In this document: positions 2,956 to 36,393 of the stretch, piece by piece
Numbering within the stretch: position 1 is the first letter of the stretch
Layout: each line of letters opens with the position of its first letter
NCBI GenBank assembly: GCA_964366485.1
Contig: CAYITZ010000001.1
Location: 1-43,501 of the forward strand
Source: an uncultured Gammaproteobacteria bacterium
GTDB lineage: Bacteria; Patescibacteriota; Microgenomatia; UBA1406; GWC2-37-13
Direction of reading: 5' to 3'
Length of the DNA stretch: 43,501 nucleotides
Translations under genes and position numbers: made by a program
Notes under the pieces: generated by a model
What the model was told of the DNA's origin: nothing
The model's input: the letters and a program-made list of their open reading frames with translations, nothing else
Databases searched by the model: none

Positions 2956-2956
2956 T

Positions 2957-5613: not shown

Positions 5614-5615
5614 TT

Positions 5616-6716
5616 ATGAAAATCGGCATAGATATCTCACAAATTGTATATGAGGGCACCGGCGTCGGCAGATTTGTGAATGGATTGACCGATTCGATAC
5701 TTCAATTTGATAAGACAAATCAATGGACTTTCTTTTTTTCCTCTCTCCGTCAAAATCTGAATCCTCAAATTAAAAAATCTATCAAAAAAAACGGACATCG
5801 TTTATCAGAGTACAAATTGCCACCCTCAGCCCTGTCTTTTTTATGGAACACAATGCACCGGATGAAGGTAGAAAAATTAGTGGGAAATCTGGATTGGTTC
5901 ATAACCTCAGACTGGACTGAGCCACCTTCACACATGAAAAAAGCAACCATAATCCATGACCTTGCATACTTAAAGTATCCCGAAACTATCCACGAAACGA
6001 TACTTCAAACTCAAAAACAAAGAATGAACTGGGTAAAAAAAGGGTCAAAAATTATTTTTGCTGACTCTGAAACAACCAAACATGATGCAATTCAACTCTG
6101 TGGACTTGAAGAAAAAAAGATATTCGTCAATTACCCGGGTGTGCAGTTTCCCAAATCTAATATATCTGAAATGAAGAATGCCCTCTCTTTGTTTGAACTT
6201 AAAAAACCATTTATATTGACGGTGGGAAAAATTGAACCAAGAAAAAATTTAAAAAGATTAATCGATGCTTTCGCTCACATAAATAATAAGACAGTTGACC
6301 TTGTTGTTGTGGGCCATCAAGGATGGGATACTGAAATTTCAAAGGGACAATCTGAATCAGCGAATATAAAGTTCTTAAACTTTATAACTGACACGGAATT
6401 GTCCGCGCTCTATTCCTCTTGTCTTTTTTTTATCTATCCTTCACTCTATGAGGGTTTTGGATATCCTGTAGTTGAAGCCATGAAATCTGGCGCGGCTGTG
6501 GCAACATCAAACAACTCTTCTTTGAGGGAAATTGGCTTGACCTCAGCGCTTCTATTTGATCCTCAAAGTACTGAGAGTATAGAGGAAGTTATATTGAGAC
6601 TTATAAGTGATTTTGACCTAAGAAATAAATTAAAAAAACAGGGTATAATGAGGAGTCGTGATTTTGAGTGGAAAAGTTATTATGATAAGATGATGGACGT
6701 CTTGATGAAACATTAG
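5616..6716 (+). CDS. GT4 glycosyltransferase
   Basis: GKIEPRKNL...PSLYEGFGYPVVEAMKSGAAVATS (E-x7-E region). Confidence 0.85.
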   Translation: MKIGIDISQIVYEGTGVGRFVNGLTDSILQFDKTNQWTFFFSSLRQNLNPQIKKSIKKNGHRLSEYKLPPSALSFLWNTMHRMKVEKLVGNLDWFITSDWTEPPSHMKKATIIHDLAYLKYPETIHETILQTQKQRMNWVKKGSKIIFADSETTKHDAIQLCGLEEKKIFVNYPGVQFPKSNISEMKNALSLFELKKPFILTVGKIEPRKNLKRLIDAFAHINNKTVDLVVVGHQGWDTEISKGQSESANIKFLNFITDTELSALYSSCLFFIYPSLYEGFGYPVVEAMKSGAAVATSNNSSLREIGLTSALLFDPQSTESIEEVILRLISDFDLRNKLKKQGIMRSRDFEWKSYYDKMMDVLMKH

Positions 6717-6730
6717 TTACCTTTATAACT

Positions 6731-7849
6731 ATGATAATTGGAGTAGACGGCAACGAAGCCAATGTAAGAGAGAAGGTGGGAGTATCGGTCTACACGTTGA
6801 AACATCTTTTTTATTTTCAACAGCGCGCTTCTTCAAATTTAAAGTTTATTGTCTATTTAAAAAAGCTCCCTATTAATGACCTACCTGACGAGACACCTTA
6901 TTTTAAATACAAAGTAGTAAATGGTTCCTTTCTCTGGTCCCAAATATTTTTACCTTTTGAATTGTTTAAGAATTATTTTTCTCGGGAACGCATTAAGGTG
7001 TTTTTCTCACCCGCCCATTACGCTCCTCGGTTTTGTTTTTGTCCGTCCGTGGTAACCATACATGATGTGGCATATCTCCATTATCCAGACGAGTTCTTGA
7101 AAAAAGATTTGTACCAATTGAAGAACTGGACGAATTATTCTCTACACAATGCGACAAAAATTATAACCGTCTCAAAAACTACGAAAAAAGACGTGATGCG
7201 TTTTTATCACACCTCTGAAAATAAAATTGAAGTTATATTTAACGGGTTTGAAAAAGAAATTGACGACCAATCAATCGTCGGTTCAAGCGGCGAAATGACA
7301 CCCCCTATTACTTCTCCCTACGTGCTTTATGTTGGCACTATTCAACCCAGAAAAAATATAATTGCGCTCATCCGCGCTATGACTGTACTCAATAAAACTC
7401 ATCCTGAGTTTAAATTGGTGATAACAGGGAAAAAAGGTTGGCTTTTCGATCAGATTTTTAAGGAAGCAAGGAATTTATATCTTGAGAATAAAATAATTTT
7501 TACCGGCTATGTTACTGATGAAGAATTAGTAACTCTTTACCAAAAAGCTTTTTGTTTTGTGCTCCCCTCTTTTTATGAGGGCTTTGGTATCCCGGTACTT
7601 GAGGCCATGAGTTTTGGATGTCCGGTTATTTCCTCATTCTCCTCAAGTCTCCCTGAAGTAGGAGGCGAAGCCATGCTCTATTTTGATCCGGAAAATTACT
7701 CCGAACTTTCAGATAAGATCGTTCTCCTTTCGACAGATAAAAAACTCCGAAGTGAACTGATAAAGAAGGGTCGTCAACGGATTAAGCTATTTTCATGGAA
7801 TAAATGTGCAAGGGAAACATTAAAAATCCTCACATCACTGCATGGATGA
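6731..7849 (+). CDS. GT4 glycosyltransferase
   Basis: GTIQPRKNI...PSFYEGFGIPVLEAMSFGCPVISS. Paralogous in pattern to the 5616..6716 gene. Confidence 0.85.
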   Translation: MIIGVDGNEANVREKVGVSVYTLKHLFYFQQRASSNLKFIVYLKKLPINDLPDETPYFKYKVVNGSFLWSQIFLPFELFKNYFSRERIKVFFSPAHYAPRFCFCPSVVTIHDVAYLHYPDEFLKKDLYQLKNWTNYSLHNATKIITVSKTTKKDVMRFYHTSENKIEVIFNGFEKEIDDQSIVGSSGEMTPPITSPYVLYVGTIQPRKNIIALIRAMTVLNKTHPEFKLVITGKKGWLFDQIFKEARNLYLENKIIFTGYVTDEELVTLYQKAFCFVLPSFYEGFGIPVLEAMSFGCPVISSFSSSLPEVGGEAMLYFDPENYSELSDKIVLLSTDKKLRSELIKKGRQRIKLFSWNKCARETLKILTSLHG

Positions 7850-8981
7850 AAATAAAAAACTGCGTATTGCCATGTTTTTTTCCTCCAACCCTACCTCAGC
7901 CGGCGGAGTGCAGGAGCATGTTCGTTATTTGTCAGTAGAGTTGAGGAAAAGAGGGCATGAAGTGACTCTTTTTGGACCTGAGGGAAACGCAAAACAGTAT
8001 AAGAATTATCACCCCATCGGTTATACCATTCAGGTCCCCCTCCCGAACGGTAACTGGACAAGTATCCAGATGCTCAAACCTTTTTCTGATATAAATAAAA
8101 TTTTTTCAAAAAATAAATTTGATATCCTGCATATTCAGGAACCCTATATCCCCATCCTTGGGTGGCAGTTGGTTGACGCAACCAGTATCCCAAAAGTCAG
8201 TACTTTTCACTCCGCATGGGATGATACTTCTATTATCAATGCACTCAATGGTATTGTGCCTCTGTTTAAAGATAAATTTTCCGAGAAAATGGGTGCCGCA
8301 ATCTTTGTCTCCCGCATCACTCAAAAGAGATGGGAAGGTCTTTGTACAAAAAAAGTCTCTCAACATATTGTTTACAACGCAGTAGACAGGGAGTCGTTTT
8401 ACCCCATCCCCCAGAAGAAGTCAAAAAAAATAAAGCTTCTTTTTTTGGGGCGTATGGTGCAAAGAAAGGGGGTAATCTATTTATTGGAAGCTTTTCGCAT
8501 GATTGCCCACAAGTTTCCTCAGGCAGAGTTGGAGTTCGTTGGCGGGGGGCCAGAGGTGCAAACAACCTTGTCATTTATTAAAAATAACCACCTCGAAAAG
8601 CAGATAAAATATGGGGGGGAAGTCTTTGGAAATAAGAGAATTCATTTTTTTCAGGAAGCTCAAATATTCTGCGCTCCCTATTTTGATGAGGCATCTCCCC
8701 TCACCATACTTGAGGCAATGAGTTGCGGATGCACGATTGTAGGATTTCAAAATGAGGCGGTTAAAGAATCTCTCCGTGAGTATCCAAACTTTGAACTTCT
8801 GGTTGAGCAGAAAAATACAAAGGCACTTGCTCAGGCATTAACAAAAGTACTAACCGATTCTCAACTTCGGCAGGATGTAAGAGCTTGGTGTATCGGGGAA
8901 AGTCAAAAATATGCTTGGAGTATTGTGGCGGAGCAAACTGAGAAAATTTATTTGAGTATTTTAAAACAGAACCATGCGTAA
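7842..8981 (+). CDS. GT4 glycosyltransferase
   Basis: SSNPTSAGGVQEHVRYLSVELRKRGHEV at the N-terminus; FLGRMVQRKG...ASPLTILEAMSCGCTIVG at the C-terminus. 8-nt overlap with the upstream gene. Confidence 0.85.
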   Translation: MDENKKLRIAMFFSSNPTSAGGVQEHVRYLSVELRKRGHEVTLFGPEGNAKQYKNYHPIGYTIQVPLPNGNWTSIQMLKPFSDINKIFSKNKFDILHIQEPYIPILGWQLVDATSIPKVSTFHSAWDDTSIINALNGIVPLFKDKFSEKMGAAIFVSRITQKRWEGLCTKKVSQHIVYNAVDRESFYPIPQKKSKKIKLLFLGRMVQRKGVIYLLEAFRMIAHKFPQAELEFVGGGPEVQTTLSFIKNNHLEKQIKYGGEVFGNKRIHFFQEAQIFCAPYFDEASPLTILEAMSCGCTIVGFQNEAVKESLREYPNFELLVEQKNTKALAQALTKVLTDSQLRQDVRAWCIGESQKYAWSIVAEQTEKIYLSILKQNHA

Positions 8982-10482
8982 AGCTTTGTTATCGTTGCTC
9001 TTGCAGATCTTTCAACTTCATAAAAGCTCCGTACCCACTGATAAAAAAGGGCTCATTATTATACTGATTGATGGACTTAGTCACACCATGCTCAAACAGG
9101 CGATCGAAAAAAGATATGGCAAATTTTTTTCAAAACTTCTTAAAAAAGGATACTCTGTACATCCATATTTTTGTGGTATCCCTGCGGTAACTACCGCAAC
9201 TGAGGCAGAGTTATTCTTTGGGACAAGTGAAAATATTCCTGGATTTACTTGGTATGATAGGTCTTTGTCTCAGTTTGTGAGGGGAAATAGGGGCGAAAGT
9301 GTCGTGGGATTTGAACAAGAAATGAAGAAGAAATCTCAATTGCTCAAGTCAGGATCTTGCATATTGGGTATTTATTCCGCAGGCGCTACACAATGTGATC
9401 TTTCAGGGGTTGAGTTAAATTTAAAATCCCCATTGAAAGTTTTTCGTAAGCTCCATTATTTTCTCTTTATTTTTTTCAACCCTCTTCGATTGTTTTTAAC
9501 ATGCTACCTTATAGTTAGGAGTGTGCTTACAAGTATTTTTATTTCAGGCAAAGAACGATCAAAAAAGAAATTAATTACTCTTTTAAAATCCGCATTTTCC
9601 CGTATTTTCTTAGGAAATATTGCAAGCTATATTGCCGAACTTGAAATAGCGCGTGAAACGCCTGTTCTTTTTATTGATTATGTACTCTATGATGAATTTG
9701 CTCACGAATACGGAATAGATGCTAAGATGTCTTACTCATCAATTCGACTAATTGATTGGTATTGTGAGTCTCTCTATAAAACAGCTCAAAAATCTAAAAG
9801 AAAATATGATTTTCTCATTCTTTCCGATCACGGACAGACACCATCAAGACCCCTTGATAAACCAAACTACCTTGAGAGCATAGTTCAAAATGCTCTCAAT
9901 GATCCATCCTATCATGTGTTAAAAACATTTGGTTTCCCCCCATTTGAACAAAAAGATAAGAACATCTATCTTATTCCAGGTGGCTCAACAACTCAAGTTT
10001 ATTTTTCTGAAAGATTCAAAAAACCTTATGTACTACATGAACTTGACGAGAAATTTCCAAATATCATAAATAGTTTGATAAATAATGAAGAAATTGGTTG
10101 GGTGTTGGTAAGGAATAGTAATAATACGCAGTCACTCATTGGAAGAAAAGGAATGATTGAATTTGCAGGAGGGAAAGTCCAGAAAATCTCTGGCTACCCT
10201 TTTGGCACATTGCCGTTTGATAAAAGAATACCCCAGTCACTCGCACGATATGCGTCTTTTGAAAATAATGGGGATCTGGTACTTTTTGGAAATGTTGATG
10301 ATCAAGGAAGACTGTATGCCTTTGAAGAACATAAAGGAACCCATGGGGGGTTTTATGGAGATATGACAAGGCCGTTTATATTAACGAATAACGAGATGGT
10401 TATAAATCAATTAAATAAAGATAATGAAATGAGGCTCATTTTTGAAGCGATCAGAACAAGTTATGGCGCGGATAAACTATAA
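8974..10482 (+). CDS. alkaline-phosphatase-superfamily enzyme (type I phosphodiesterase/nucleotide pyrophosphatase-like) with internal TM segments
   Basis: LIIILIDGLSH (metal/nucleophile region), DEFAHEYG, LILSDHGQT and EEHKGTHGG motifs. Hydrophobic stretch HYFLFIFFNPLRLFLTCYLIV. Confidence 0.65.
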   Translation: MRKALLSLLLQIFQLHKSSVPTDKKGLIIILIDGLSHTMLKQAIEKRYGKFFSKLLKKGYSVHPYFCGIPAVTTATEAELFFGTSENIPGFTWYDRSLSQFVRGNRGESVVGFEQEMKKKSQLLKSGSCILGIYSAGATQCDLSGVELNLKSPLKVFRKLHYFLFIFFNPLRLFLTCYLIVRSVLTSIFISGKERSKKKLITLLKSAFSRIFLGNIASYIAELEIARETPVLFIDYVLYDEFAHEYGIDAKMSYSSIRLIDWYCESLYKTAQKSKRKYDFLILSDHGQTPSRPLDKPNYLESIVQNALNDPSYHVLKTFGFPPFEQKDKNIYLIPGGSTTQVYFSERFKKPYVLHELDEKFPNIINSLINNEEIGWVLVRNSNNTQSLIGRKGMIEFAGGKVQKISGYPFGTLPFDKRIPQSLARYASFENNGDLVLFGNVDDQGRLYAFEEHKGTHGGFYGDMTRPFILTNNEMVINQLNKDNEMRLIFEAIRTSYGADKL

Positions 10483-11503
10483 TATGAGTATGAGAAGCAT
10501 ACAGATTCTTGAAGATACGTTTGATAAAAAAGAATTTAATAGTGTTGCACTACATCCTCTACAAGCATGGGAATGGGGAGAAGCACGAAAAAAAATGGGG
10601 ATTGCTGTGATAAGAATAGGAGTATTTGATAAAGATACTCTTATTGAAACTTATCAAATGACTATACATCTCATTGCTTTAGGCTATAAAATTGGTTATC
10701 TCCCTCGCTCAATATTTCCTTCCAAGGACGTGTTGAGCTTTCTATCGTCGTATGGGAAAAAAAACAATCTCATCTTCATAAAAATCGAACCGTATGTTGA
10801 AGCGGGTTTCAAATTTCCCTACGTTCCTCAGGGTAAACAAACTTCAAATTTCAAATTGACTAAGTCTCCTCATCCTTTATTTCCAATCTGGACGCAAATG
10901 CTGGACCTCACCCAAACTGAAGAAGATCTCTTAAGGAATATGAAGCAAAAGACGAGATATAATATTAAACTCGCTCAAAAAAAGGGTGTTGCGGTGAAGG
11001 AAATGTCAAACAATGAGGGCTTTGAGATATTTCAGAAGCTCTATTTTGATACGTGCAAACGGCAAAAATACTTTGGCCACACAAAAGAGTATCACGAAAT
11101 TGTCTGGAACAGTCTAAAGGATGGGATTGCCCATATTTTAATTGCATTCTATGAAGGTGCTCCCCTTGCGGCGTATGAACTGTTCAAATTCAAAGATATT
11201 TTTTATTATCCGTATGGGGGTACTTCAGAATTACACCGCAACCTGATGGCGGCAAATCTTCTCATGTGGGAGGCAATCCGCTTAGGAAGAAAACTGGGTG
11301 CAACCAAGTTTGACATGTGGGGGTCTCTTCCCCGAAATTATGACCAACATAATCCTTGGGCGGGCTTTACCCGATTCAAAGAGGGATACGGCACCACCTT
11401 CACCGAATTTGTTCCCGGATTAGATTTGGTAGTTTCTCCCTTTTTATATTCTCTCTATAATCTTATGTATACATTAAGGAATTTCTACCTTGGACTACGA
11501 TAG
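10463..11503 (+). CDS. FemAB-family peptidyltransferase (peptidoglycan interpeptide-bridge type)
   Basis: QKTRYNIKLAQKKGV, YEGAPLAAYELF..YYPYGGTS and WEAIRLGRKLGATKFDMWG resemble FemX/FemAB. The start is ambiguous: TTG 10442 (track), ATG 10463 or ATG 10484. Confidence 0.7.
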   Translation: MARINYNMSMRSIQILEDTFDKKEFNSVALHPLQAWEWGEARKKMGIAVIRIGVFDKDTLIETYQMTIHLIALGYKIGYLPRSIFPSKDVLSFLSSYGKKNNLIFIKIEPYVEAGFKFPYVPQGKQTSNFKLTKSPHPLFPIWTQMLDLTQTEEDLLRNMKQKTRYNIKLAQKKGVAVKEMSNNEGFEIFQKLYFDTCKRQKYFGHTKEYHEIVWNSLKDGIAHILIAFYEGAPLAAYELFKFKDIFYYPYGGTSELHRNLMAANLLMWEAIRLGRKLGATKFDMWGSLPRNYDQHNPWAGFTRFKEGYGTTFTEFVPGLDLVVSPFLYSLYNLMYTLRNFYLGLR

Positions 11504-12148: not shown

Positions 12149-12313
12149 TAGAAGTCATCTCTAATCCTAGGGATACGGAATGTCATTGCGAGCCAATCAT
12201 AGTATAGCGAAGCAATCTTATCAGGTCATGAGATTGCCACATCGCCCTTGGCAACCTCGCAGGTTGCCAGGCTCCTCGCAATGACATGTTATTAGGTTTA
12301 GAGATAACTTCTA
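12149..12313. repeat. 165-nt nested imperfect palindrome (outer stem, inner stem, two internal hairpins) between convergent genes
   Basis: Outer arms 12149-12170 TAGAAGTCATCTCTAATCCTAG and 12292-12313 are complementary at 19/22 positions. Inner arms ATGTCATTGCGAG (12180-12192) and CTCGCAATGACAT (12275-12287) are perfect over 13 bp. Internal hairpins: GCAATCT/AGATTGC (12212-12218 / 12231-12237) and CTTGGCAACCT-CGC-AGGTTGCCAGG (12247-12271). Confidence 0.8.
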
Positions 12314-13129
12314 CCTATAATTACTATTCGAGTCAGCGGCCATACTTAATACAATTTCCTTATATCTTTTAACTGCTTTGTATAAATCAGAAATAACAAT
12401 ATATTCTTCTTTTTGATGCGCCAGTTTTGGGTTTCCTGGATCACAGATGATGAAATCAACGTCTTTGTAAAATCTCGCGTCGGTTGCAAAATTCACTCCT
12501 ACTGCCTCAGTATGGCATATCTTTTTTGCCGCTCTGACTAGAGGGGAATCTACACTTGTCTCACAAGGCTCCCCGTACGAAATGACATCTATCGATCCTC
12601 TCCCCTGCCTATTGACTATTTGAGCTATTTTATGAATGATGTTTGCTTTTGATTGTCCAGGTAAATAACGAATATCTATATCTAATTCACACTTACCGGC
12701 AACGATATTCACCTTTTGTCCTCCTTTTATAATTCCCAGACTAATTGATGGATTAGATAATAGTGGATGAACTATGCTGAACTTCATACTTTTTAATTCT
12801 TGAATGATGTTTGACATCTTCTCAATTGCATTCTCTCCATTTTCAGGAAAAGCGGCATGCGCTTCTTTTCCAGATATGATAATTTTCAGTCTGAGAAATC
12901 CCTTTTCTGCAATAAAAATATTGAAGCCAGTTGGTTCACCGAATATATGGTATTTTGCATTTATTCCTTTTTCTGCCAATACTTTTGTTCCAAAATATCC
13001 TGCATTTTCCTCATCGCAAACACAGCATAAGATAACTTTTCCGTTGAATTTCTGAAAAGTCAGATTCTGATAATTTAATATCTCCAAAATCAATATCATA
13101 GTAAAAACCGCTTTCAATAGAAGTACCAA
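12311..13129 (-). pseudogene. M20-family metallopeptidase (ArgE/DapE-like) lacking about 95 N-terminal residues
   Basis: Homology starts near GKVILCCVCDEENAG (the DEE metal motif). It continues through FGEPTG, the dimerisation domain AEKGFLRLKIIISGKEAHAAFPENGENAIEKM, and the C-terminal DPGNPKLAHQKEEY. The N-terminal HxD and Asp metal ligands are missing. The first ~30 codons of the track ORF are an alternate-frame read of ThrRS-derived DNA. Confidence 0.65.
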
Positions 13130-13254: not shown

Positions 13255-14793
13255 TTATTGGGTATTTTTTAACCAATTAATAATTTTATCCCCAATAAGC
13301 TTAGTATTTGGGTTATATTTTTTTCTGTGTTTAATAGCTTTTCTTTTTAATTCCAGAATATTTTTTGGAATAGACGCCTTAGTAATTCTTTTTATTCGTT
13401 TAAGTATTTCAAATTCATCTAACATATCATCATTAATTGATTTTGTGAGAGCTCTGCAAACATCCTTTGCAAACTTTGCCCAGTGGGCCGTTGAACAGAT
13501 AATTACGGGTGAGGAGATAGATTTTTGTTTTTGGTATCTCTCTACTATCGCTTGAGCAACAGAAGTATGGGGGTCCATCAGATATTTAGTTTCATCATAA
13601 AGTTTTTTTATATTTAATAAACAATCTTTATTTGAAACCCAATCCGCATAAAATTCTTTCTTTAAGATTCCTTTAGTAAGATTGTCAACCTCAAATTTTC
13701 TTTCGATTTTTAATTGGTTTATCCAGAAGGAAACTTTTTTTGGATCATTAGAGATTGTGTATAAAAGACGTTCAATATTACTGGCGATAAGAATATCCAT
13801 CGACGGTGAGGGTGTTTGCACCAATTTACGTTTTTTAATATTATATATTCCTGTTTGGAGAAATTCTGTTAGTACATTGTTTTCATTTGAAGCACAGATA
13901 AACTTTCGAATTGGTAATCCCATTTTCTTAGCATAATATGCTGCTAATGTATTCCCGAAATTACCCGTAGGGATAGCTATGTCTATCTGACTTCCCAATG
14001 TTATAACCTGCTTGTTTACTAAATCAATGTAGGCATTAATATGGTAAATAATTTGTGGAATAAGCCTTCCCCAGTTAATTGAGTTTGCTGAAGACAATAA
14101 AACTTGGTATTGATTAAAAAGTTTTTTATTAAATTTGCTGTCATTAAATATATCTTTTACTAATGATTGGACTGCATCAAAATCTCCATGGATAGCGCAA
14201 ACTTCAACATTTAACCCGTTTTGGGTAATCATTTGCAACTCTTGGAGTCGCGATACATGTCCATAGGGATAAAAAACTATTATGGAAACACCTTTTCTAT
14301 CTTTGAACCCCTCTAAAGCTGCTTTTCCTGTATCTCCAGATGTTGCTACTAAAATGAGATAATGTATAGGTTTTTCACCTTTGTTGACCAATTTTTTATT
14401 CTTCTCCTTTACTGCTTCTGAAAATAGCAATGGCATAATTTGTAAAGCCATATCTTTGAAAGCGGAGGTTGGACCATGCCATAACTCAAGAACATATTGA
14501 TTGTCTTTTAAGTGGATTGATGGGGCAATTAGAGTAGTATCGAAGTTTGTAGAATATGCTGTATTAACAATTTTCCTTATGGTATTCTCTGACAAGTCTG
14601 GTTCAAAAAGATTAAAAATAAAAATAGCTCGTTCTTGATATGACTTTTTTGATAGTAACCTTAATTGTCTAAGCGAAAATTTTGGTATTTTTTCCGGAAC
14701 AAAAAGACCTCCATCATTTGCAATACCTTTTAATATGACATCCAAAAAAGAACATAATTTTATATTGTTTCGTGTACTTTTGTATTGAATCAT
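13255..14793 (-). CDS. thrC: threonine synthase (long form)
   Basis: YKSTRNN...GIANDGGLFVP at the N-terminus; PLP-lysine motif TSAFKDMALQ; SGDTGKAA. ATGA overlap with the upstream kinase. Confidence 0.9.
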   Translation of the reverse strand: MIQYKSTRNNIKLCSFLDVILKGIANDGGLFVPEKIPKFSLRQLRLLSKKSYQERAIFIFNLFEPDLSENTIRKIVNTAYSTNFDTTLIAPSIHLKDNQYVLELWHGPTSAFKDMALQIMPLLFSEAVKEKNKKLVNKGEKPIHYLILVATSGDTGKAALEGFKDRKGVSIIVFYPYGHVSRLQELQMITQNGLNVEVCAIHGDFDAVQSLVKDIFNDSKFNKKLFNQYQVLLSSANSINWGRLIPQIIYHINAYIDLVNKQVITLGSQIDIAIPTGNFGNTLAAYYAKKMGLPIRKFICASNENNVLTEFLQTGIYNIKKRKLVQTPSPSMDILIASNIERLLYTISNDPKKVSFWINQLKIERKFEVDNLTKGILKKEFYADWVSNKDCLLNIKKLYDETKYLMDPHTSVAQAIVERYQKQKSISSPVIICSTAHWAKFAKDVCRALTKSINDDMLDEFEILKRIKRITKASIPKNILELKRKAIKHRKKYNPNTKLIGDKIINWLKNTQ

Positions 14794-15407
14794 TTTTTAA
14801 TTACCTCCATAAATTCATCTACACTAAAATTTTGACTATGCGAAAAAGTATAATCAAACCTAATATTTGTAATATTCTCATACCTTTTTGATCTAAAAGC
14901 AAGTAGTTTAGGATAACATCTACTTAGAGATTCAATATTTGATTCCCCATTTACCTTGTAAAAAGATTTACCCCAAATAACCGGCTTTGGATCTTTAAGA
15001 TACAACCTGTACATTTCTTGCTGAACAGTAACGGGAGTGTCCAAATAAATTATCTGAGTTAATTTCGATAATTTCTGTAAAATACTATTTTCCATATAAA
15101 TAACACTACCAGTCGTATCAATAACAATATTTTTTTGGTGTTTAATAGCTCTAAATATTTCATACGTTGCTTTGTTCTCAAAATATAAATATTTTTTACT
15201 TCTTTTCACATATTGGGGATCAAATGGTTGCCCCATCCATTTACCAACATCATGTAATCCAGAATAACCAAACTTTTTAAGTTCATGACTTAATTTCTGT
15301 TCAATTATGTCATCACAACAAAACCTCTTGAAGCCTTTTTCTTCTTGAAGTTTTTTCGACCAATAACTTTTACCACTACCAGACATTCCAATTATTGAAA
15401 GTTTCAT
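14790..15407 (-). CDS. P-loop kinase, shikimate-kinase-like fold, sitting in the homoserine kinase position of the thr operon
   Basis: Walker A IIGMSGSGKS. FCCDDIIEQ resembles the SK DxD substrate motif and VIDTTGSVIY resembles the SK GGG segment. 205 aa. ATGA overlaps on both sides (asd and thrC). Confidence 0.6.
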   Translation of the reverse strand: MKLSIIGMSGSGKSYWSKKLQEEKGFKRFCCDDIIEQKLSHELKKFGYSGLHDVGKWMGQPFDPQYVKRSKKYLYFENKATYEIFRAIKHQKNIVIDTTGSVIYMENSILQKLSKLTQIIYLDTPVTVQQEMYRLYLKDPKPVIWGKSFYKVNGESNIESLSRCYPKLLAFRSKRYENITNIRFDYTFSHSQNFSVDEFMEVIKK

Positions 15408-16477
15408 ATATACCCTTTTTTAACTAGTAACTCTGCCATGAGAATTGCTCCTCCAGCAGCACCTCTTATGGTATTGTGAGATAGAGCAATAAATTTCCAA
15501 TCAAAATATTTATCTTTCAGCAATCTCCCCATTGAGATTCCCATTCCATTTCCAAAGTCACGGTCCAATCTTGTTTGAGGGCGATTCTCCTCTTCAAAAT
15601 AATGAATAAACTCCTTTGGGGCAGAGGGTAAATTTAATTTATCTATTGGGTTAAACTTTTTAATCGCATCAAGAATTTGTTGTCTGGATGGTTTTATCTT
15701 GAATAATACTGATACACTTACCATATGACCGTTTGATGCAGGAACTCGTATGCATGTTGCAGAAATTTCTGGTTTTTTAGCAATATACAATTTATTGTTA
15801 GTAATTTTTGCCCATATTTTTAAGGGTTCTTTCTCAGATTTTTCTTCTTCTCCAACTATTAAAGGAATAACATTATCGACCATCTCTGGCCAACTACCAA
15901 ACGTTTTGCCTGCGCCAGAGATTGCCTGCATACTAACAATCTGAGCTTTTTGTGGTTTAAATTTTTTAAGAGCAGTAAGTATTGATACATAGGATTGTAT
16001 TGAACAGTTTGGTTTCACAGCAATTAAACCCTTTTTCCAACCTCTGTTTTTTCTTTGTATATCTATGAGTTTTACATGTTCAGAATTAATCTCCGGCATA
16101 ATCATTGGAATATCTTCTGTCCATCTATGCGCAGAGTTGTTTGATACAACAGGAACATCAAGTGCGGCATAAGCTTTCTCAACCCGCTTAATATCCTCTT
16201 TATCCATATCTAACGCAGAGAAAACAAAATTAACCTGTTTTGCTATACTTTTTATATTACTTTCTGCGGATTTAACTTTTAATTTCTTTACTTGTTCTGG
16301 AATAGGTGTATTCATTTTCCATCGGCCTTTAACAGCCTCTTCGTATTTTTTCCCAGATGATTGAGGAGACGCTGCAATAACTACTACCTCAAACCATGGA
16401 TGATTTTCTAGCAGTTGGATAAACCGCTGTCCCACCATACCCGTTGCTCCCAATATTCCCACTTTTAGCTTATTCAT
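15404..16477 (-). CDS. asd: aspartate-semialdehyde dehydrogenase
   Basis: VGILGATGMVGQRF (NADP site), active-site KPNCSIQS, SMQAISGAG and SHNTIRGAAG. Confidence 0.9.
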   Translation of the reverse strand: MNKLKVGILGATGMVGQRFIQLLENHPWFEVVVIAASPQSSGKKYEEAVKGRWKMNTPIPEQVKKLKVKSAESNIKSIAKQVNFVFSALDMDKEDIKRVEKAYAALDVPVVSNNSAHRWTEDIPMIMPEINSEHVKLIDIQRKNRGWKKGLIAVKPNCSIQSYVSILTALKKFKPQKAQIVSMQAISGAGKTFGSWPEMVDNVIPLIVGEEEKSEKEPLKIWAKITNNKLYIAKKPEISATCIRVPASNGHMVSVSVLFKIKPSRQQILDAIKKFNPIDKLNLPSAPKEFIHYFEEENRPQTRLDRDFGNGMGISMGRLLKDKYFDWKFIALSHNTIRGAAGGAILMAELLVKKGYI

Positions 16478-17469
16478 ATATTTCCTCCATTAACTATTTT
16501 TGCAACTGATAGAAGATCAGCGAACACACCTGCTGCAGTAACAAAAATTCCTGCCCCAGGTCCTTTTACTACTAATGGGTTTTTAAAATATCGTTCGGTC
16601 TTGAGGGCAATCAAATTGTCAGGTCCTTTAAGATTTCCAATATCACTTGATTTATCAACTTCTTGAAGTCCGACACTACACTTTTGAAAACTTATTTTTG
16701 CTACAAAGCGTAGAACTTTATCTTTCTTTTTTGCTTCTTTTACCTTTTGTTTGTAAAAATTATTTATTTGGTATAGGTCGCGCAAAAAGTTTTCATCGCT
16801 TAGTTTCTGCATTTTTTTTGGATATAAACCAACAAGTTGTATATCTTTAATTTCAATTTTCCGACCTATTAAGCGGGCCAAAATTAGAGCTTTGCGAGCT
16901 ACGTCAACACCTGATAAATCGTCTCTCGGATCGGGTTCGGTAAACCCTTTTTCCTTTGCAGAAAGTACTGCTTCAGAGAACAGTCTTCCATTGTCTAATT
17001 GAGAAAAAATAAATCCAAGTGTTCCACTAAAGCAACCTTGTATTTCTATAACTTTATCTCCAGTTGTTATAAAATTTTTTAATGTTTGGACGATCGGTAA
17101 ACCTGCGCCTACTACGCACTCATAAAATAACCGTTGTTCACCCAATTTATGTAAAAAATCAAAATCTTTTTGTTTGCCACTAAGTGGTTTTTTGTTTGCT
17201 AAAATAGCAAATCCTCCACGTTTTAGAGCAAACGTAATATATGAGACTGTTTCATCGGATGCGGTTGTATCTATAAGCACAAATGGTAAAGCAATTTTCT
17301 GTATTGCGTCATTAATTTCTTGTGCAGAATTTTCTGAATTAAATTTTCCAACATAATTAAGTGAAATACCTAAGCTTTTTCTAAGTTTCTTTTTCTGTTC
17401 TGCGAGTTGCCTTATAACTTCCTTTCCTACATTTCCAGCTCCAAGATGTAAAATGTTCAATTTTTTCAT
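16474..17469 (-). CDS. hom: homoserine dehydrogenase, no C-terminal ACT domain
   Basis: LNILHLGAGNVGKEV (NAD(P) site), FYECVVGAGLPIV, GTLGFIF and EPDPRDDLSGVDVARK. I prefer ATG 17469, which forms an ATGA overlap with the ask stop; the track start is 17487. Confidence 0.85.
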   Translation of the reverse strand: MKKLNILHLGAGNVGKEVIRQLAEQKKKLRKSLGISLNYVGKFNSENSAQEINDAIQKIALPFVLIDTTASDETVSYITFALKRGGFAILANKKPLSGKQKDFDFLHKLGEQRLFYECVVGAGLPIVQTLKNFITTGDKVIEIQGCFSGTLGFIFSQLDNGRLFSEAVLSAKEKGFTEPDPRDDLSGVDVARKALILARLIGRKIEIKDIQLVGLYPKKMQKLSDENFLRDLYQINNFYKQKVKEAKKKDKVLRFVAKISFQKCSVGLQEVDKSSDIGNLKGPDNLIALKTERYFKNPLVVKGPGAGIFVTAAGVFADLLSVAKIVNGGNI

Positions 17470-18371
17470 TGTGATACTCCTTTCCATATTTTTGTACCAA
17501 TTAAATCTGGTTTAAAGATATTTTTTACCCACACAATAATTCCTTTTGATTTGACAGGTTTCATTGCTTCAGAATGCAATACCTTTGCCCCTCTTTCTGC
17601 AAGAGCAAGTGCTTCAGAATATAAAAGTTCTGAGTAAAACTTTGCTTGATCATCTTTCTTAGGATCGGTACTAAATACACCATCAACCTCTTTCCATAAA
17701 ATAACTTCTTTTGCGTCAAGAACATTAGATAGAATAGTTGCGCTGTAGTCAGACCCACCTCTACCTAGAGTTACAATTTTTCCTTCTTTTGTGGCAGCAT
17801 AGAATCCAGTTACAACAGGTACAATATGTTTTAGGAGTAGAGGTAGTAAACTTTTCTTTGCTTTTATTTTGGTATCTGCAAGAAGAGCCCTAGCGTTACC
17901 AAACATATTGTTTGCCACAATAACACTAGAAGCGTCTATAGGTTTTGCGATGACATCAATTTTGTTTAATGCAGCTGACAATAAGTGACTACATAATTTT
18001 TCACCAAATGAAATTACGTAGTCGTAATCAGATAAGCTGTAGTCTTTACATAGGAAAAGGTAAATACTTAAATCCCCAAAAAGATGATAAAGAGATTTTT
18101 TAATATGAACATAATCATTTTTCCTTAATCCTAAATCTCTTAATGCAGAATTATGAATACCATGTAGTATGCGTATTTCTTCAAAAGCGGTCGAAAAATC
18201 TCTAGATTTGCATTTCTGAAAAAGACTAATCAGTTTATCTGTTACACCATTCATAGCCGACACAACAATAACTACTTCTGACTTATTGCTAAATTTTTTA
18301 ATAATTTCAGCAACATGAAGCATTCGTTTACCCGTTCCAAGCGATGATCCTCCAAATTTCATAATTTTCAT
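17466..18371 (-). CDS. ask: aspartate kinase, catalytic AAK domain only (301 aa, no ACT domains)
   Basis: MKFGGSSLGT, VVVSAMNGVTD, TLGRGGSDYSAT and VDGVFSTDP. The protein ends right after the kinase domain. Confidence 0.85.
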   Translation of the reverse strand: MKIMKFGGSSLGTGKRMLHVAEIIKKFSNKSEVVIVVSAMNGVTDKLISLFQKCKSRDFSTAFEEIRILHGIHNSALRDLGLRKNDYVHIKKSLYHLFGDLSIYLFLCKDYSLSDYDYVISFGEKLCSHLLSAALNKIDVIAKPIDASSVIVANNMFGNARALLADTKIKAKKSLLPLLLKHIVPVVTGFYAATKEGKIVTLGRGGSDYSATILSNVLDAKEVILWKEVDGVFSTDPKKDDQAKFYSELLYSEALALAERGAKVLHSEAMKPVKSKGIIVWVKNIFKPDLIGTKIWKGVSQ

Positions 18372-21121: not shown

Positions 21122-21973
21122 TCAAATAAAATCACTTAATAGACCTTCGAGATCTTTCACTTTACTTTGCGAAACAAGAGTCGAATCAGCCAGCTGGGGA
21201 AGATGTTCGTGATAAGCCGGCCTATCTTCTTTAAAGAGTATTCCTAAGGGAAATTTCTCCTCATGGAATTCAAGTGCCTTACCAAGTGCCGCAACTTTAT
21301 TGTTAGGTTGATAATCTGCCCCAAGCTTATATGACTTTTGCATGTAATAGGGATAGGTATTTATTTTGTTGAAGGTAACGCAGGGCTGAAGAATATTTAC
21401 GATTGAAAATCCTTTATGTTCAAATGCATGCTTCATGGTTTCAATCATGTGGGGAGCATTACCTGCAAATGCCTGTGCTACGAACGTGGCCCCTTGAGTT
21501 ATGGCAAAGCTCAATGGATTTACCGGTGTTTCAATGATGCCGGTTGGTGTCGATTTTGATTTATATCCTTTTGCCGCGGTTGGTGCAACCTGACCCGTAG
21601 TTAATCCGTACACGCTATTGTCATGAATAATGGCAGTAATATCATGATTTCCGCGGCACCCGTGGAGAAAATGATTGCCCCCTTCACCATAAAAATCTCC
21701 ATCCCCCGCTACCACGATAGTTTGCATCTTGTGATTTGAAAGTTTAAAACCGATAGCAACGGGAAGAGCCCTACCGTGTAGGCCATGGCTTGCATAGGCA
21801 TTCAGGAAATCGTTCATGTTACCGGAACACCCGATTCCAAAAGATACAAACACGGAAGAAGGCGAGAGCCCCATTTGTACCAGCGCGGATTTAATCGCCA
21901 CTCCAATCCCCCAATTGCCACACCCCGGGCACCAGGTTGGTTGATAGCCGGTAAAATCCTGTACTGTTGACAT
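21122..21973 (-). CDS. 2-oxoacid:ferredoxin oxidoreductase beta (TPP-binding) subunit
   Basis: TWCPGCGNWG, and VVAGDGDFYGEGGNH (TPP GDG motif). Confidence 0.85.
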   Translation of the reverse strand: MSTVQDFTGYQPTWCPGCGNWGIGVAIKSALVQMGLSPSSVFVSFGIGCSGNMNDFLNAYASHGLHGRALPVAIGFKLSNHKMQTIVVAGDGDFYGEGGNHFLHGCRGNHDITAIIHDNSVYGLTTGQVAPTAAKGYKSKSTPTGIIETPVNPLSFAITQGATFVAQAFAGNAPHMIETMKHAFEHKGFSIVNILQPCVTFNKINTYPYYMQKSYKLGADYQPNNKVAALGKALEFHEEKFPLGILFKEDRPAYHEHLPQLADSTLVSQSKVKDLEGLLSDFI

Positions 21974-21976
21974 AAA

Positions 21977-23695
21977 TTATTTTAAAATGCTATTAACTAT
22001 CTCCTCCATTGAGATAGGCCGCCCATCGTATTTAAGAATCATTTCTTTCAGATCAACACCCAGCTCCATCCTCAAAAGTTTTCCAAACTGCCCGGTTGAG
22101 TTATTTTCAACAAGAATATATCTTTTTTCTTTATTAAAAAATGGCAAAACCATTTCTTTACTCATGGGGAACAGGTGGATAAAATGGAGAAGGGCCGTCT
22201 TCTTTCCTTTTTCCTGCAAAAGACGTTGTGCTTCTCGTACCGGGCCTTTGGTTGATCCCCAAGCAACAAAAACAATCTCCGCACTATCCATATCTCCGTA
22301 GACGATGGGAGGTGAAAAATGTGACATAAGATACGTTTGTGTTTTACGTGCCCGTTTATCCACTTGATTTATGCGGTCTAAAGCTTCCTCGGTTGTGTGT
22401 CCGTCTTCCAGATGTTCGTATGAGTTTGATTGATAGTAAGCCCCTTCTGCTCCCGGCACCAGGTGAGGAGATATCCCATCTTCGGTGATTCGATAACGTA
22501 GGTAGGGAGACTGATCAATTTTATTGATCTGTTTTCCTCTATTTGGTTTATACTCTTTCATGTGCTTTTCAACAAGATCCTTTGAAAGGCTTCGATGAGA
22601 CTCCGAAAGTAACATGTCTGACATGACTATTACCGGAACCTGGTATATGTCAGCTAAATCAAAAGCTTTGATAGTCAACTCAAACATTTCATCGTTATCT
22701 CCTGGTGCAAGTACAATTTTAGGAAACTCTCCATGCCCCGCGTGCACCGCAAACAAAAGATCCCCCTGCTCGGTCCACGTCGGCATTCCCGTTGCAGGTC
22801 CTGACCTCTGAGCAAGAAATATGACGATGGGAATTTCCGCAATACCGGCAAACGATATTGATTCCACCATGAGGGCAAATCCACCACCTGAAGTACCAAC
22901 CGACGTTCGAACGCCTGCAAGCGATCCGCCGAGTGCGGTATTAATAACCGAAATTTCATCTTCTGCGTGGCGGACTACCATATTTGTTTTTCCCTGCCAT
23001 CCGGCAAGGACGGTGAGGACGGTTGATGAAGGTGTCATGGGATAGGCTACATACAGGCGGCAATCGGCAACTGAGGCGGCAAGTGAAAACGTTTCGTTTC
23101 CGCTTATTACCAGTTGGGGTGTATTTTCCCGTTTTACTAATAGAGGCTTCACATGCTCTTTATAGTTTGCTAAAACATAGTTATAGCCTGCTTCAGCAAA
23201 TTGCTTGTTGAAATTTACAACCGTATCTCCTTTTCTACCAAATTGGGATACAAGAAGCTCATGAAGCACCGAAATATCAGCCCCAAGAAGCGCCAAAGAC
23301 GCGCCAAGTGCTATTGTATTTTTCATGACAACTTGTCCCTTTAAATCTGATAGAGTTTTTTTTAGGGGAATATGAAGTTTAATTATGGAATCTTCTATCT
23401 CAAACTCATCTTTGTCATACAACACTAAGCTATTTGATCCGAGCTTATCTTTATGAAATGTATAGGTGTCTTTATTTAAGCATACCAACATGTTTATAGT
23501 CTGTTTGAGACTATATACCGGTTCATCCGAAAAACCTACATTGTAAGTATTATGTCCACCCCTGATAAGAGACGGGTATTGGATATAATCAAAAATAAAA
23601 TACCCCAAACGGCTTGCGATTTTGGAGAAAAAAGTTCCCGTCGTAAGGATACCAAATCCCGCCTCACCGCCAATTTTCCAAAGATATTGCGGCAT
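21977..23695 (-). CDS. 2-oxoacid:ferredoxin oxidoreductase alpha subunit (gamma-alpha fused type)
   Basis: MPQYLWKIGGEAGFGILTTG (gamma-domain start), AYPMTPSS, HAEDEISVIN. Start moved to ATG 23695, because the track start 23758 would overlap the ferredoxin gene by 61 nt. Confidence 0.85.
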   Translation of the reverse strand: MPQYLWKIGGEAGFGILTTGTFFSKIASRLGYFIFDYIQYPSLIRGGHNTYNVGFSDEPVYSLKQTINMLVCLNKDTYTFHKDKLGSNSLVLYDKDEFEIEDSIIKLHIPLKKTLSDLKGQVVMKNTIALGASLALLGADISVLHELLVSQFGRKGDTVVNFNKQFAEAGYNYVLANYKEHVKPLLVKRENTPQLVISGNETFSLAASVADCRLYVAYPMTPSSTVLTVLAGWQGKTNMVVRHAEDEISVINTALGGSLAGVRTSVGTSGGGFALMVESISFAGIAEIPIVIFLAQRSGPATGMPTWTEQGDLLFAVHAGHGEFPKIVLAPGDNDEMFELTIKAFDLADIYQVPVIVMSDMLLSESHRSLSKDLVEKHMKEYKPNRGKQINKIDQSPYLRYRITEDGISPHLVPGAEGAYYQSNSYEHLEDGHTTEEALDRINQVDKRARKTQTYLMSHFSPPIVYGDMDSAEIVFVAWGSTKGPVREAQRLLQEKGKKTALLHFIHLFPMSKEMVLPFFNKEKRYILVENNSTGQFGKLLRMELGVDLKEMILKYDGRPISMEEIVNSILK

Positions 23696-23697
23696 AA

Positions 23698-23973: not shown

Positions 23974-23981
23974 AGTTTCTA

Positions 23982-24338: not shown

Positions 24339-24347
24339 AGATTTTAA

Positions 24348-26166: not shown

Positions 26167-26182
26167 ATTACAAGTTAAATAA

Positions 26183-27580: not shown

Positions 27581-27588
27581 AGGAATAA

Positions 27589-28299: not shown

Positions 28300-28301
28300 G
28301 G

Positions 28302-35883: not shown

Positions 35884-35903
35884 CTTATAATATAATAAAC
35901 AAC

Positions 35904-36353: not shown

Positions 36354-36393
36354 CATAATTACTTCTCAACATAATTAACGTTTTATATAAAAA

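What the first reader, a model, noticed from the sequence alone, without database searches (positions are those of the whole stretch)
14790..15407. Shikimate-kinase-like P-loop kinase occupying the thrB slot: candidate non-orthologous homoserine kinase
The operon encodes aspartate kinase, homoserine dehydrogenase, ASA dehydrogenase and threonine synthase. That is every step from aspartate to threonine except homoserine kinase.

No GHMP-type thrB is present in the operon. The only additional gene is a 205-aa P-loop kinase with Walker A GMSGSGKS and SK-like segments FCCDDIIEQ and VIDTTGS. It lies between asd and thrC and is joined to both by ATGA start/stop overlaps, which implies co-translation and matched stoichiometry.

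Known homoserine kinases are the GHMP-type ThrB, the PGM-like ThrB2 and the HAD-type ThrH. I know of no P-loop/SK-fold homoserine kinase. This would mirror the archaeal case in which shikimate kinase is a GHMP (homoserine-kinase-like) enzyme.
Basis: inference. Interest (0 to 1): 0.8.

Follow-up and report, generated by a model that had tools for sequence, protein, structure and literature searches.

The report
Shikimate-kinase-fold homoserine kinase candidate
A small ATP-dependent kinase with the shikimate-kinase fold sits where the homoserine kinase gene should be in a threonine operon. It belongs to a large unnamed family that very probably does that job, although a different shikimate-kinase-like homoserine kinase was already proven in Desulfovibrio in 2018.

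Summary
A 205-aa P-loop kinase (14790..15407, minus strand) lies between asd and thrC and is joined to both by ATGA overlaps. The operon otherwise encodes aspartate kinase, homoserine dehydrogenase, ASA dehydrogenase and threonine synthase. No GHMP, ThrB2 or ThrH gene was found in the window.

The predicted structure is a shikimate-kinase (SK) fold. The homoserine-kinase reading is strongly supported by comparative evidence:
- The family has about 950 clusters at 50% identity and at least 191 species.
- It abuts thr genes in 32 of 80 sampled loci, in 15 different gene orders.
- It is fused to aspartate kinase-homoserine dehydrogenase in both orders. One such fusion is followed directly by thrC.

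Price et al. 2018 showed that DvMF_0971, an SK-related protein of Desulfovibrio vulgaris, is a homoserine kinase, and NCBIfam NF040667 models it.

The window family is not that family. It scores 25-49 bits on NF040667 against a cut-off of 197, while true shikimate kinases score 99-119 bits. It is a deeper, separate SK-fold branch with its own invariant motifs. Sources name it "hypothetical" or "shikimate kinase". No biochemical test exists.

Verdict: a new variant of a known kind, of moderate interest.

The parts
14790..15407 (-). SK-fold P-loop kinase, 205 aa; predicted ATP:L-homoserine O-phosphotransferase (homoserine kinase)
   Evidence: ORF found. Pfam SKI scores 26.4 bits (gathering threshold 22.1). 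The AF2 model has pLDDT 92.7, and the top 37 Foldseek PDB hits are all shikimate kinases or a shikimate-kinase scaffold. Family context and fusions.
15366..15389 (-). Walker A / P-loop, GMSGSGKS (aa 7-14); G12 and K13 are invariant
   Evidence: Read directly from the sequence. G12 and K13 are invariant in 101 family members. K13 aligns to K15 of M. tuberculosis shikimate kinase.
15312..15314 (-). Codon of D32, an invariant Asp; proposed catalytic base acting on the substrate hydroxyl
   Evidence: D in 101 of 101 members. hhalign places it on D34 of M. tuberculosis shikimate kinase. That D34 contacts the shikimate hydroxyl is from my own knowledge of the structures.
15225..15239 (-). WMGQP motif (aa 57-61), part of a family-specific insertion in the substrate-binding subdomain
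   Evidence: W57 and P61 are invariant; M58 and G59 are at least 96% conserved. Residues 58-67 have no counterpart in shikimate kinase.
15105..15119 (-). DTTGS motif (aa 97-101); T99-G100-S101 replaces the GGG shikimate-binding loop of shikimate kinases
   Evidence: D97 and G100 are invariant; T98, T99 and S101 are at least 97% conserved. T99-G100-S101 aligns to G79-G80-G81 of M. tuberculosis shikimate kinase.
14892..14894 (-). Codon of R172, an invariant Arg; proposed binder of the substrate carboxylate
   Evidence: R in 101 of 101 members. It aligns to R136 of M. tuberculosis shikimate kinase.
13255..14793 (-). thrC, threonine synthase (512 aa, long form with Thr_synth_N); its start overlaps the kinase stop (ATGA)
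   Evidence: TIGR00260 256.2 bits (cut-off 167.1); PF14821, PF00291 and PF24857 also hit.
15404..16477 (-). asd, aspartate-semialdehyde dehydrogenase (archaeal-type asd_EA); its stop overlaps the kinase start (ATGA)
   Evidence: TIGR00978 345.8 bits (cut-off 301.2) and NF006416 465 bits.
16474..17487 (-). hom, homoserine dehydrogenase (337 aa, no ACT domain)
   Evidence: PF00742 167.7 bits and PF03447. The best NCBIfam hits are to the homoserine dehydrogenase half of bifunctional ThrA.
17466..18371 (-). Aspartate kinase, catalytic domain only (301 aa, no ACT domains); first gene of the operon
   Evidence: PF00696 163.8 bits; TIGR00657 256.7 bits (cut-off 208.7). The match ends at model position 284 of 442.

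Best explanation
The gene encodes an ATP-dependent L-homoserine kinase built on the shikimate-kinase (NMP-kinase-like P-loop) fold. It would supply O-phospho-L-homoserine to the threonine synthase encoded immediately downstream.

The operon aspartate kinase - homoserine dehydrogenase - ASA dehydrogenase - kinase - thrC would then be a complete, translationally coupled route from aspartate to threonine.

Proposed mechanism (inferred by homology to shikimate kinase, not tested):
- The P-loop (G7-S14, K13) holds the ATP phosphates.
- Invariant D97, at the end of strand 3, takes the Mg2+/Walker-B role.
- Invariant D32 activates the gamma-hydroxyl of homoserine.
- Invariant R172 binds the substrate carboxylate.
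- The lid residue K141 (K or R across the family, in a K/R-P motif) stabilises the transferred phosphate.
- A re-modelled substrate subdomain adapts the pocket from shikimate to an amino acid. Its features are L74 in place of the second shikimate-binding Arg, T-G-S in place of G-G-G, two insertions carrying W57-M-G-x-P61, and invariant E77 and E155.

The protein is not a member of the Desulfovibrio-type SK-like homoserine kinase family. It represents a separate, older and much more widespread SK-fold family.
For: Shown by tool results:
1. Fold. The AF2 model has pLDDT 92.7 and pTM 0.88. The top 37 Foldseek PDB hits are all shikimate kinases or a shikimate-kinase scaffold, E down to 8e-8, TM 0.5-0.76. 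hhalign against E. coli AroK gives E 2.9e-6 and against M. tuberculosis shikimate kinase 5.4e-5. Pfam SKI scores above its gathering threshold.
2. Pathway logic. All other aspartate-to-threonine enzymes are in the operon, and the kinase overlaps asd and thrC by ATGA.
3. Conserved neighbourhood with shuffled order. Of 80 GTDB loci, 34 have AK, HSD, ASD or ThrC within 4.5 kb and 32 abut one directly, in 15 distinct arrangements. Threonyl-tRNA synthetase is also a recurrent neighbour.
4. Rosetta-stone fusions. P0133 (1031 aa) and P0271/P0153 are AK-ACT-HSD-kinase. P0266 (1055 aa) is kinase-AK-ACT-HSD. The P0133 gene is followed at once by thrC on a 350-kb contig, so the kinase domain occupies the thrB position of a thrA-thrB-thrC layout.
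5. No GHMP motif II or ThrB-like ORF occurs in the window or in the roughly 1 Mb of related loci.
6. Residues that bind ATP and the substrate hydroxyl and carboxylate in shikimate kinase are invariant here (K13, D32, R172). Shikimate-specific ones are replaced (R58 to L74, GGG to TGS).
7. Precedent. An SK-related enzyme is a proven homoserine kinase in Desulfovibrio (PMC5764234).
Against: - There is no biochemical or genetic test of any member of this family.
- I could not examine the whole genome of the window organism or of any relative. A canonical thrB elsewhere, or phyletic complementarity with thrB, is untested.
- In the higher-GC loci (records mostly titled Desulfobacterota, Chloroflexota or Bdellovibrionota), 32 of 35 have no thr gene within 4.5 kb of the kinase. 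The function there could differ.
- Some candidate-phyla-radiation (CPR; Patescibacteria) members are also unlinked to thr genes, for example L002 and P0083/L081.
- Residue roles are transferred from shikimate kinase through a low-identity alignment (15-20%).
Confidence: 0.8

Rival explanations
1. It is a genuine, divergent shikimate kinase (AroK) that happens to lie in a threonine operon.
For: Pfam SKI scores above its gathering threshold. The fold is that of shikimate kinase. JGI names several members 'shikimate kinase'.
Against: - All NCBIfam shikimate-kinase equivalog models score at most 27 bits, against cut-offs of 161-217.
- One shikimate-binding Arg is replaced by Leu, and the GGG loop is replaced by TGS in at least 97% of members.
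- No shikimate-pathway gene is in the window, and none recurs next to the kinase in the 80 loci.
- Fusion to AK-HSD and repeated abutment to thrC have no rationale for an aromatic-pathway enzyme.
Confidence: 0.04
2. It is a small-molecule kinase for a different substrate connected with threonine metabolism, for example L-threonine or L-serine, or it salvages a related hydroxy-acid. Homoserine kinase would then be encoded elsewhere.
For: Substrate identity is inferred only from context. Roughly half of the family's loci are not thr-linked. Nine Desulfobacterota-type loci place the kinase next to a GT9 glycosyltransferase instead.
Against: - The pathway in the operon has exactly one missing step, and that step is a hydroxyl phosphorylation.
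- The kinase is fused directly after homoserine dehydrogenase and directly before thrC, the position of consecutive steps.
- No alternative homoserine kinase appears in any sampled thr-linked locus.
Confidence: 0.1
3. It is a regulatory P-loop protein, a protein kinase or NTPase acting on aspartate kinase or homoserine dehydrogenase. It would replace the feedback control lost with the ACT domains in this operon.
For: The window's aspartate kinase and homoserine dehydrogenase lack ACT domains. Fusion to AK-HSD could equally reflect a regulatory partnership.
Against: - The fused proteins and many neighbouring AK-HSD genes keep their ACT domains. The kinase therefore does not track ACT loss.
- The residues homologous to shikimate kinase's small-molecule-binding residues (D32, R172) are invariant.
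- The operon would still lack homoserine kinase.
Confidence: 0.04

Closest known systems
Desulfovibrio-type shikimate-kinase-like homoserine kinase (DvMF_0971; NCBIfam NF040667 hom_kin_desulfo; Price et al. 2018, PMC5764234)
   Same: It has the same fold class and the same proposed reaction. NF040667 is the best-scoring NCBIfam model for all 38 family members tested. It shows that an SK-fold enzyme can be the cell's homoserine kinase.
   Different: - The window family scores 25-49 bits, against a cut-off of 197.
- True shikimate kinases score 99-119 bits on the same model. The Desulfovibrio enzyme is therefore a close offshoot of AroK/AroL, whereas this family is a far deeper branch.
- This family is about 205 aa against a 163-position model. 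It has two insertions and a longer lid carrying family-specific invariant residues.
- I could not obtain a DvMF_0971 sequence, so no direct alignment or tree was made.
Shikimate kinase AroK/AroL (Pfam PF01202)
   Same: It shares the fold, the P-loop, the Asp on the substrate hydroxyl (D32 = Mt D34), the carboxylate-binding Arg (R172 = Mt R136) and a basic lid residue before Pro (K141 = Ec R120).
   Different: - Sequence identity is 15-20%.
- Mt R58 is replaced by L74, and G79-G80-G81 by T-G-S.
- The Mg-binding Mt D32 is replaced by C30, while an invariant D97 appears instead.
- There are insertions of 8 and 10 residues.
- The genomic context is threonine, not aromatic, biosynthesis.
Canonical homoserine kinase ThrB (GHMP superfamily)
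   Same: It has the same operon slot (thrA-thrB-thrC logic) and the same proposed reaction.
   Different: The fold is unrelated. No GHMP motif II is present and there is no PF00288 hit.
ThrB2 (TIGR02535, PGM-like) and ThrH (HAD phosphotransferase)
   Same: These are other non-orthologous fillers of the homoserine-phosphorylation step. ThrB2 was likewise predicted from thr-operon context (PMC9026213; PMC7311316).
   Different: Their folds and phosphate donors are different. ThrB2 failed to complement E. coli thrB-. No such domains are present here.

Membership tests
NCBIfam NF040667 hom_kin_desulfo (Desulfovibrio SK-like homoserine kinase) | Whole-protein score at or above the curated cut-off of 197 bits | tested here: not met
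   The window protein scores 44.4 bits. The 28 members of A1 reach E no better than 4e-12. Ten members from other phyla score 25-49 bits.
NCBIfam NF040667 hom_kin_desulfo (Desulfovibrio SK-like homoserine kinase) | Closer to this family than genuine shikimate kinases are (specific sister relationship) | tested here: not met
   M. tuberculosis shikimate kinase scores 99.2 bits and E. coli AroK 119 bits on NF040667, well above the window family.
NCBIfam NF040667 hom_kin_desulfo (Desulfovibrio SK-like homoserine kinase) | Homoserine kinase activity (threonine auxotrophy of mutants; complementation of E. coli thrB-) | not testable with these tools
   This was shown only for DvMF_0971 (PMC5764234). 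For the window family it is inferred from context and fusions.
Shikimate kinase (Pfam PF01202 SKI; AroK/AroL equivalogs) | Pfam gathering score of 22.1 bits | tested here: met
   The score is 26.4 bits, but the match is partial (aa 83-191 to profile positions 53-147 of 159). Most family members have no precomputed SKI hit.
Shikimate kinase (Pfam PF01202 SKI; AroK/AroL equivalogs) | NCBIfam equivalog cut-offs (161-217 bits) | tested here: not met
   The best shikimate-kinase model scores 19.5 bits for the window protein and at most 27 bits for any member tested.
Shikimate kinase (Pfam PF01202 SKI; AroK/AroL equivalogs) | Three-dimensional fold (five-stranded P-loop core, substrate-binding subdomain, lid) | tested here: met
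   The top 37 Foldseek PDB hits are shikimate kinases or a shikimate-kinase scaffold, with probability 1.00 and target-normalised TM 0.58-0.76.
Shikimate kinase (Pfam PF01202 SKI; AroK/AroL equivalogs) | Full set of shikimate-binding residues (Mt D34, R58, G79-G81, R136) | tested here: not met
   D34 and R136 are conserved as D32 and R172. R58 is replaced by L74 (92% Leu) and GGG by T99-G100-S101.
GHMP homoserine kinase (ThrB) | GHMP motif II (PxGSGLGSSA) and a PF00288 domain | tested here: not met
   There is no Pfam GHMP hit. There is no motif or E. coli ThrB-like match in the window or the 80 loci.
P-loop NTPase, NMP-kinase-like | Walker A motif GxxxxGK[ST] | tested here: met
   G7-M-S-G-S-G-K13-S14 is present. 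G12 and K13 are invariant in 101 members.

The most novel reading that the evidence does not exclude
This is a second, independently recruited shikimate-kinase-fold homoserine kinase family. It would be much older and far more widespread than the Desulfovibrio enzyme. It would serve as the main or only ThrB of many candidate-phyla-radiation (CPR; Patescibacteria) lineages, and also of many Desulfobacterota, Chloroflexota and Bdellovibrionota. That would close a share of the 'missing thrB' gaps that make such genomes look like threonine auxotrophs.
Probability: 0.55. Interest if true: 0.6.

Novelty: new variant of a known kind. Interest (0 to 1): 0.5.

Why it matters
Homoserine kinase is one of the most frequently 'missing' steps in automated amino-acid pathway reconstruction. 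It was low confidence in 20% of 148 prototrophs in GapMind (PMC7311316).

Members of this family are currently labelled 'hypothetical protein' or 'shikimate kinase'. Carrier genomes are therefore likely to be scored as threonine auxotrophs, and in some cases as having a shikimate-pathway gene.

For candidate-phyla-radiation (CPR; Patescibacteria) bacteria, usually described as lacking amino-acid biosynthesis, a complete aspartate-to-threonine operon would change inferences about what they take from hosts.

It would also be a second case of the shikimate-kinase fold taking over a GHMP job. This is the mirror image of archaeal GHMP shikimate kinase, and a clean system for studying how a carbocyclic-acid pocket is rebuilt for an amino acid.

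Tried and rejected
- **Sister relationship to the Desulfovibrio enzyme.** I first read 'best NCBIfam hit = hom_kin_desulfo in 38 of 38 members' as evidence for it. The control with real shikimate kinases (99 and 119 bits on the same model) rejects that reading.
- **DvMF_0971 sequence.** I looked for one to make a direct alignment or tree.
- **PDB by sequence.** A profile search gave nothing significant (best E 0.0075, P-loop region only). Only the fold search was informative.
- **GapMind supplements.** They did not list thrB gaps for Syntrophobacteraceae or Dehalococcoides in usable form.
- **Literature.** Searches for a prior description of this family found nothing relevant ('homoserine kinase' with Patescibacteria or candidate phyla radiation; 'shikimate kinase-like' with homoserine). 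The library does not hold all journals.
- **Regulatory elements.** The promoter scan found no more than chance (22 against 28 expected). It showed only a terminator-like hairpin after lon, upstream of the operon. Rfam found no leader or riboswitch for the operon.
- **Neighbours in the high-GC loci.** A recurring GT9 glycosyltransferase and an unannotated 186-aa protein gave no functional lead.
Full report
**1. The observation**

The ORF 14790..15407 on the minus strand encodes 205 aa starting with ATG. The plus strand reads tcat at both 15404-15407 and 14790-14793, which is ATGA on the coding strand. The asd stop therefore overlaps the kinase start, and the kinase stop overlaps the thrC start.

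The quoted motifs are real: GMSGSGKS (aa 7-14), FCCDDIIEQ (aa 29-37) and VIDTTGS (aa 95-101).

The four flanking genes pass curated thresholds:
- Aspartate kinase, 17466..18371: TIGR00657 256.7 bits against a cut-off of 208.7.
- Homoserine dehydrogenase, 16474..17487: PF00742 167.7 bits.
- Aspartate-semialdehyde dehydrogenase, 15404..16477: TIGR00978 345.8 bits against 301.2.
- Threonine synthase, 13255..14793: TIGR00260 256.2 bits against 167.1.

Pfam scans of 36 of the 37 non-nested ORFs of at least 120 aa found no GHMP kinase, no PGM-like ThrB2, no HAD-type ThrH and no shikimate-pathway enzyme. The 178-aa ORF at 39335..39871 was not scanned. A six-frame scan of the whole window found no GHMP motif II and no E. 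coli ThrB-like match.

**2. What the protein is**

By sequence it is only marginally recognisable.
- Pfam SKI scores 26.4 bits (gathering 22.1) over the C-terminal half. AAA_33 and AAA_18 are below threshold.
- A family profile finds nothing significant among PDB sequences.

By structure it is clear.
- An AlphaFold2 model built on a 28-sequence alignment has mean pLDDT 92.7 and pTM 0.88.
- Its 37 best Foldseek matches in the PDB are shikimate kinases, or a designed protein on a shikimate-kinase scaffold. E-values go down to 8e-8 and target-normalised TM-scores are 0.58-0.76. Adenylate kinases follow.
- Profile alignments to E. coli AroK (E 2.9e-6) and M. tuberculosis shikimate kinase (E 5.4e-5) agree. 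Both query sequences were verified as exact PDB chains.

**3. Active-site anatomy**

The alignments were combined with conservation in 101 non-identical family members from many phyla.

Conserved with shikimate kinase:
- K13 corresponds to Mt K15.
- D32 corresponds to Mt D34 and is Asp in 101 of 101 members.
- R172 corresponds to Mt R136 and is Arg in 101 of 101 members.
- Y176 corresponds to Mt Y140.
- E77 corresponds to Mt E61 and is invariant.
- The lid residue K141 is K in 70 and R in 25 members and is followed by P142. It corresponds to the Arg-Pro of the E. coli lid.

Changed relative to shikimate kinase:
- Mt R58 is replaced by L74 (92% Leu).
- G79-G80-G81 is replaced by T99-G100-S101 (at least 98% conserved).
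- Mt D32 is replaced by C30, which is variable across the family.
- An invariant D97 appears at the end of strand 3.

Added relative to shikimate kinase:
- Insertions at aa 42-49 and aa 58-67, the latter carrying M-G-x-P of the W57-M-G-x-P61 motif.
- A longer lid with near-invariant E155.

The roles of the M. tuberculosis residues are from my knowledge of the published structures. Transferring them to this protein is inference. The pattern is that of an enzyme which keeps the phosphoryl-transfer machinery and one carboxylate clamp but has rebuilt the rest of the acceptor pocket.

**4. Family size and distribution**

- The word-indexed search found 660 relatives at E <= 1e-3. Identity is 49-70% for the best 120 apart from one 100% identical hit. 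They are named 'hypothetical protein' or 'shikimate kinase' where named at all.
- The exhaustive HMM search found 946 clusters at 50% identity at E <= 1e-3, and 391 at E <= 1e-30.
- In GTDB species genomes, 191 stretches encode a relative, and 80 loci were retrieved.
- Carriers include CPR lineages (Levy-, Roizman-, Gottesman- and Daviesbacteria, Saccharibacteria and others). They also include Desulfobacterota (Syntrophobacteraceae, Desulfarculales and the isolate Desulforhabdus sp. TSK), Anaerolineae/Chloroflexota, Bdellovibrionota and Acidobacteriota.
- The count is a lower bound because the scan used two peptide patterns.

**5. Comparative evidence for function**

*Gene neighbourhood.* Of the 80 loci, 34 carry AK, HSD, ASD or ThrC within 4.5 kb of the kinase, and in 32 a thr gene abuts it directly. 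There are 15 different arrangements, including PK-ThrC, ThrC-PK, HSD-PK-ThrC, AK-HSD-PK-ASD, PK-AK-HSD-ASD and a divergent layout. Linkage that survives this much rearrangement is selected, not inherited by chance. Threonyl-tRNA synthetase is a further recurrent neighbour. The same pattern appears on an unrelated JGI contig, where the kinase overlaps thrC.

*Fusions.*
- P0133 (1031 aa) and P0153/P0271 (1035 aa when complete) are AK-ACT-ACT-HSD-kinase.
- P0266 (1055 aa) is kinase-AK-ACT-ACT-HSD. The two orders imply at least two fusion events.
- P0133 occurs on two contigs from different samples. On the 350-kb contig its gene is followed at once by thrC. That reproduces the E. coli thrA-thrB-thrC layout with this domain in the thrB position.

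*No competing candidate.* No GHMP motif or ThrB-like ORF occurs in any of the 80 loci, about 1 Mb in total.

*Limits.*
- Only 3 of the 35 loci with GC of at least 48% are thr-linked. Their records are mostly titled Desulfobacterota, Chloroflexota or Bdellovibrionota.
- Nine such loci place the kinase beside a GT9 glycosyltransferase.
- Some CPR members are also solitary (L002; P0083).
- Whole genomes could not be searched. Absence of a canonical thrB in carriers is therefore untested.

**6. Comparison with what is known**

- Price et al. 2018 found that mutants of DvMF_0971 in Desulfovibrio vulgaris Miyazaki F are rescued by threonine. The gene had been annotated as shikimate kinase and is 27% identical to E. 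coli shikimate kinase II.
- The genome has a separate, essential shikimate kinase.
- DvMF_0971 complements E. coli thrB- (PMC5764234).
- NCBIfam models this enzyme as NF040667.

NF040667 is the best NCBIfam hit of the window protein (44.4 bits, E 1.6e-11) and of all 38 family members tested. However, the cut-off is 197 bits. The control is decisive: genuine shikimate kinases score 99 bits (M. tuberculosis) and 119 bits (E. coli AroK) on that model.

The Desulfovibrio enzyme is thus a near relative of AroK/AroL. The window family is far more distant from both. It is not a member of NF040667, and the hit is not evidence of a specific sister relationship. Independent recruitment of the fold is the simplest reading. 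It is unproven, because I could not obtain Desulfovibrio-type sequences for a tree.

Literature searches found no description of this family. Reviews of thrB alternatives mention only ThrB2 and ThrH.

**7. Verdict**

The gene is real and the operon is as described. The protein has a shikimate-kinase fold. The homoserine-kinase assignment is the best explanation, at a confidence of about 0.8. It rests on conserved but shuffled linkage, two-way fusions with AK-HSD, the thrB-slot position and a rebuilt acceptor pocket. No experiment supports it yet.

The concept is already known (2018), so this is not categorically new. The family is distinct, large, unnamed and partly mis-annotated, so it is a new variant of a known kind. 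Interest is moderate. The finding is useful for pathway reconstruction in CPR and several anaerobic phyla, and as a likely second origin of an SK-fold homoserine kinase.

Noticed in passing
window 16474..18371 (-): The aspartate kinase (301 aa) and homoserine dehydrogenase (337 aa) overlap by 22 bases and both lack ACT domains. The dehydrogenase is most similar to the C-terminal half of bifunctional ThrA (NF006959, 322 bits), and relatives carry a fused AK-ACT-ACT-HSD of 808-890 aa. This looks like a split ThrA that has lost its allosteric module, which suggests no feedback inhibition by threonine.
   Followed up: partly
window 12311..13129 (-): An M20 ArgE/DapE-family ORF just downstream of thrC matches only profile positions 125-372 of 373 (TIGR01910) and starts with TTG. 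Only 125 bases separate it from thrC, so the N-terminal ~120 residues of the family are absent. It may be a truncated remnant or pseudogene.
   Followed up: partly
P0133, P0153/P0271, P0266; locus L084 781..3876: Trifunctional fusion proteins exist in both domain orders: aspartate kinase-ACT-homoserine dehydrogenase-SK-fold kinase, and kinase-AK-ACT-HSD. One source names P0133 simply 'bifunctional aspartokinase / homoserine dehydrogenase 1', so the extra kinase domain is overlooked.
   Followed up: yes
loci L043, L046, L049, L051, L056, L070, L071, L076 (gene after the kinase); L064 (two genes downstream, opposite strand): In these nine loci, whose record titles mostly name Desulfobacterota lineages, the kinase homologue lies beside a GT9 (heptosyltransferase-like) glycosyltransferase instead of thr genes. 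In eight loci the GT9 gene follows the kinase directly on the same strand. Several also have a type II/IV secretion ATPase-like gene upstream. The reason for this linkage is unexplained.
   Followed up: partly
window 29379..31465 (-): A TsaC/Sua5-TsaE fusion protein (349 aa) lies directly upstream of TsaD. This is a compact set of genes for t6A (threonylcarbamoyl-adenosine) tRNA modification, which consumes threonine.
   Followed up: no
window 37290..37484 (+) and 37573..39342 (+): A glmS ribozyme (Rfam RF00234, 52.2 bits) lies upstream of a glmS gene (GATase plus SIS domains). This is a known arrangement.
   Followed up: no
window 546..11503 (+): A long same-strand cluster encodes envelope and glycan genes. 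It comprises a GT2, a Wzy_C-like membrane protein, a PMT_2-like glycosyltransferase, four GT4 (GT1-type) enzymes, a type I phosphodiesterase-like protein and a FemAB-family peptidyltransferase.
   Followed up: no
window 34367..37260 (+): Three ORFs (138, 367 and 149 aa) have no Pfam match and are followed by a Bro-N domain protein. This may be a small mobile or phage-derived island.
   Followed up: no
window 21122..28700 (-): A two-subunit 2-oxoacid:ferredoxin oxidoreductase (POR/TPP domains) is present. Further along the same strand is a SUF Fe-S assembly operon: an Rrf2 regulator, SufC-like ABC ATPase, SufB, a short 209-aa SufD-like protein and a class-V aminotransferase (SufS).
   Followed up: no
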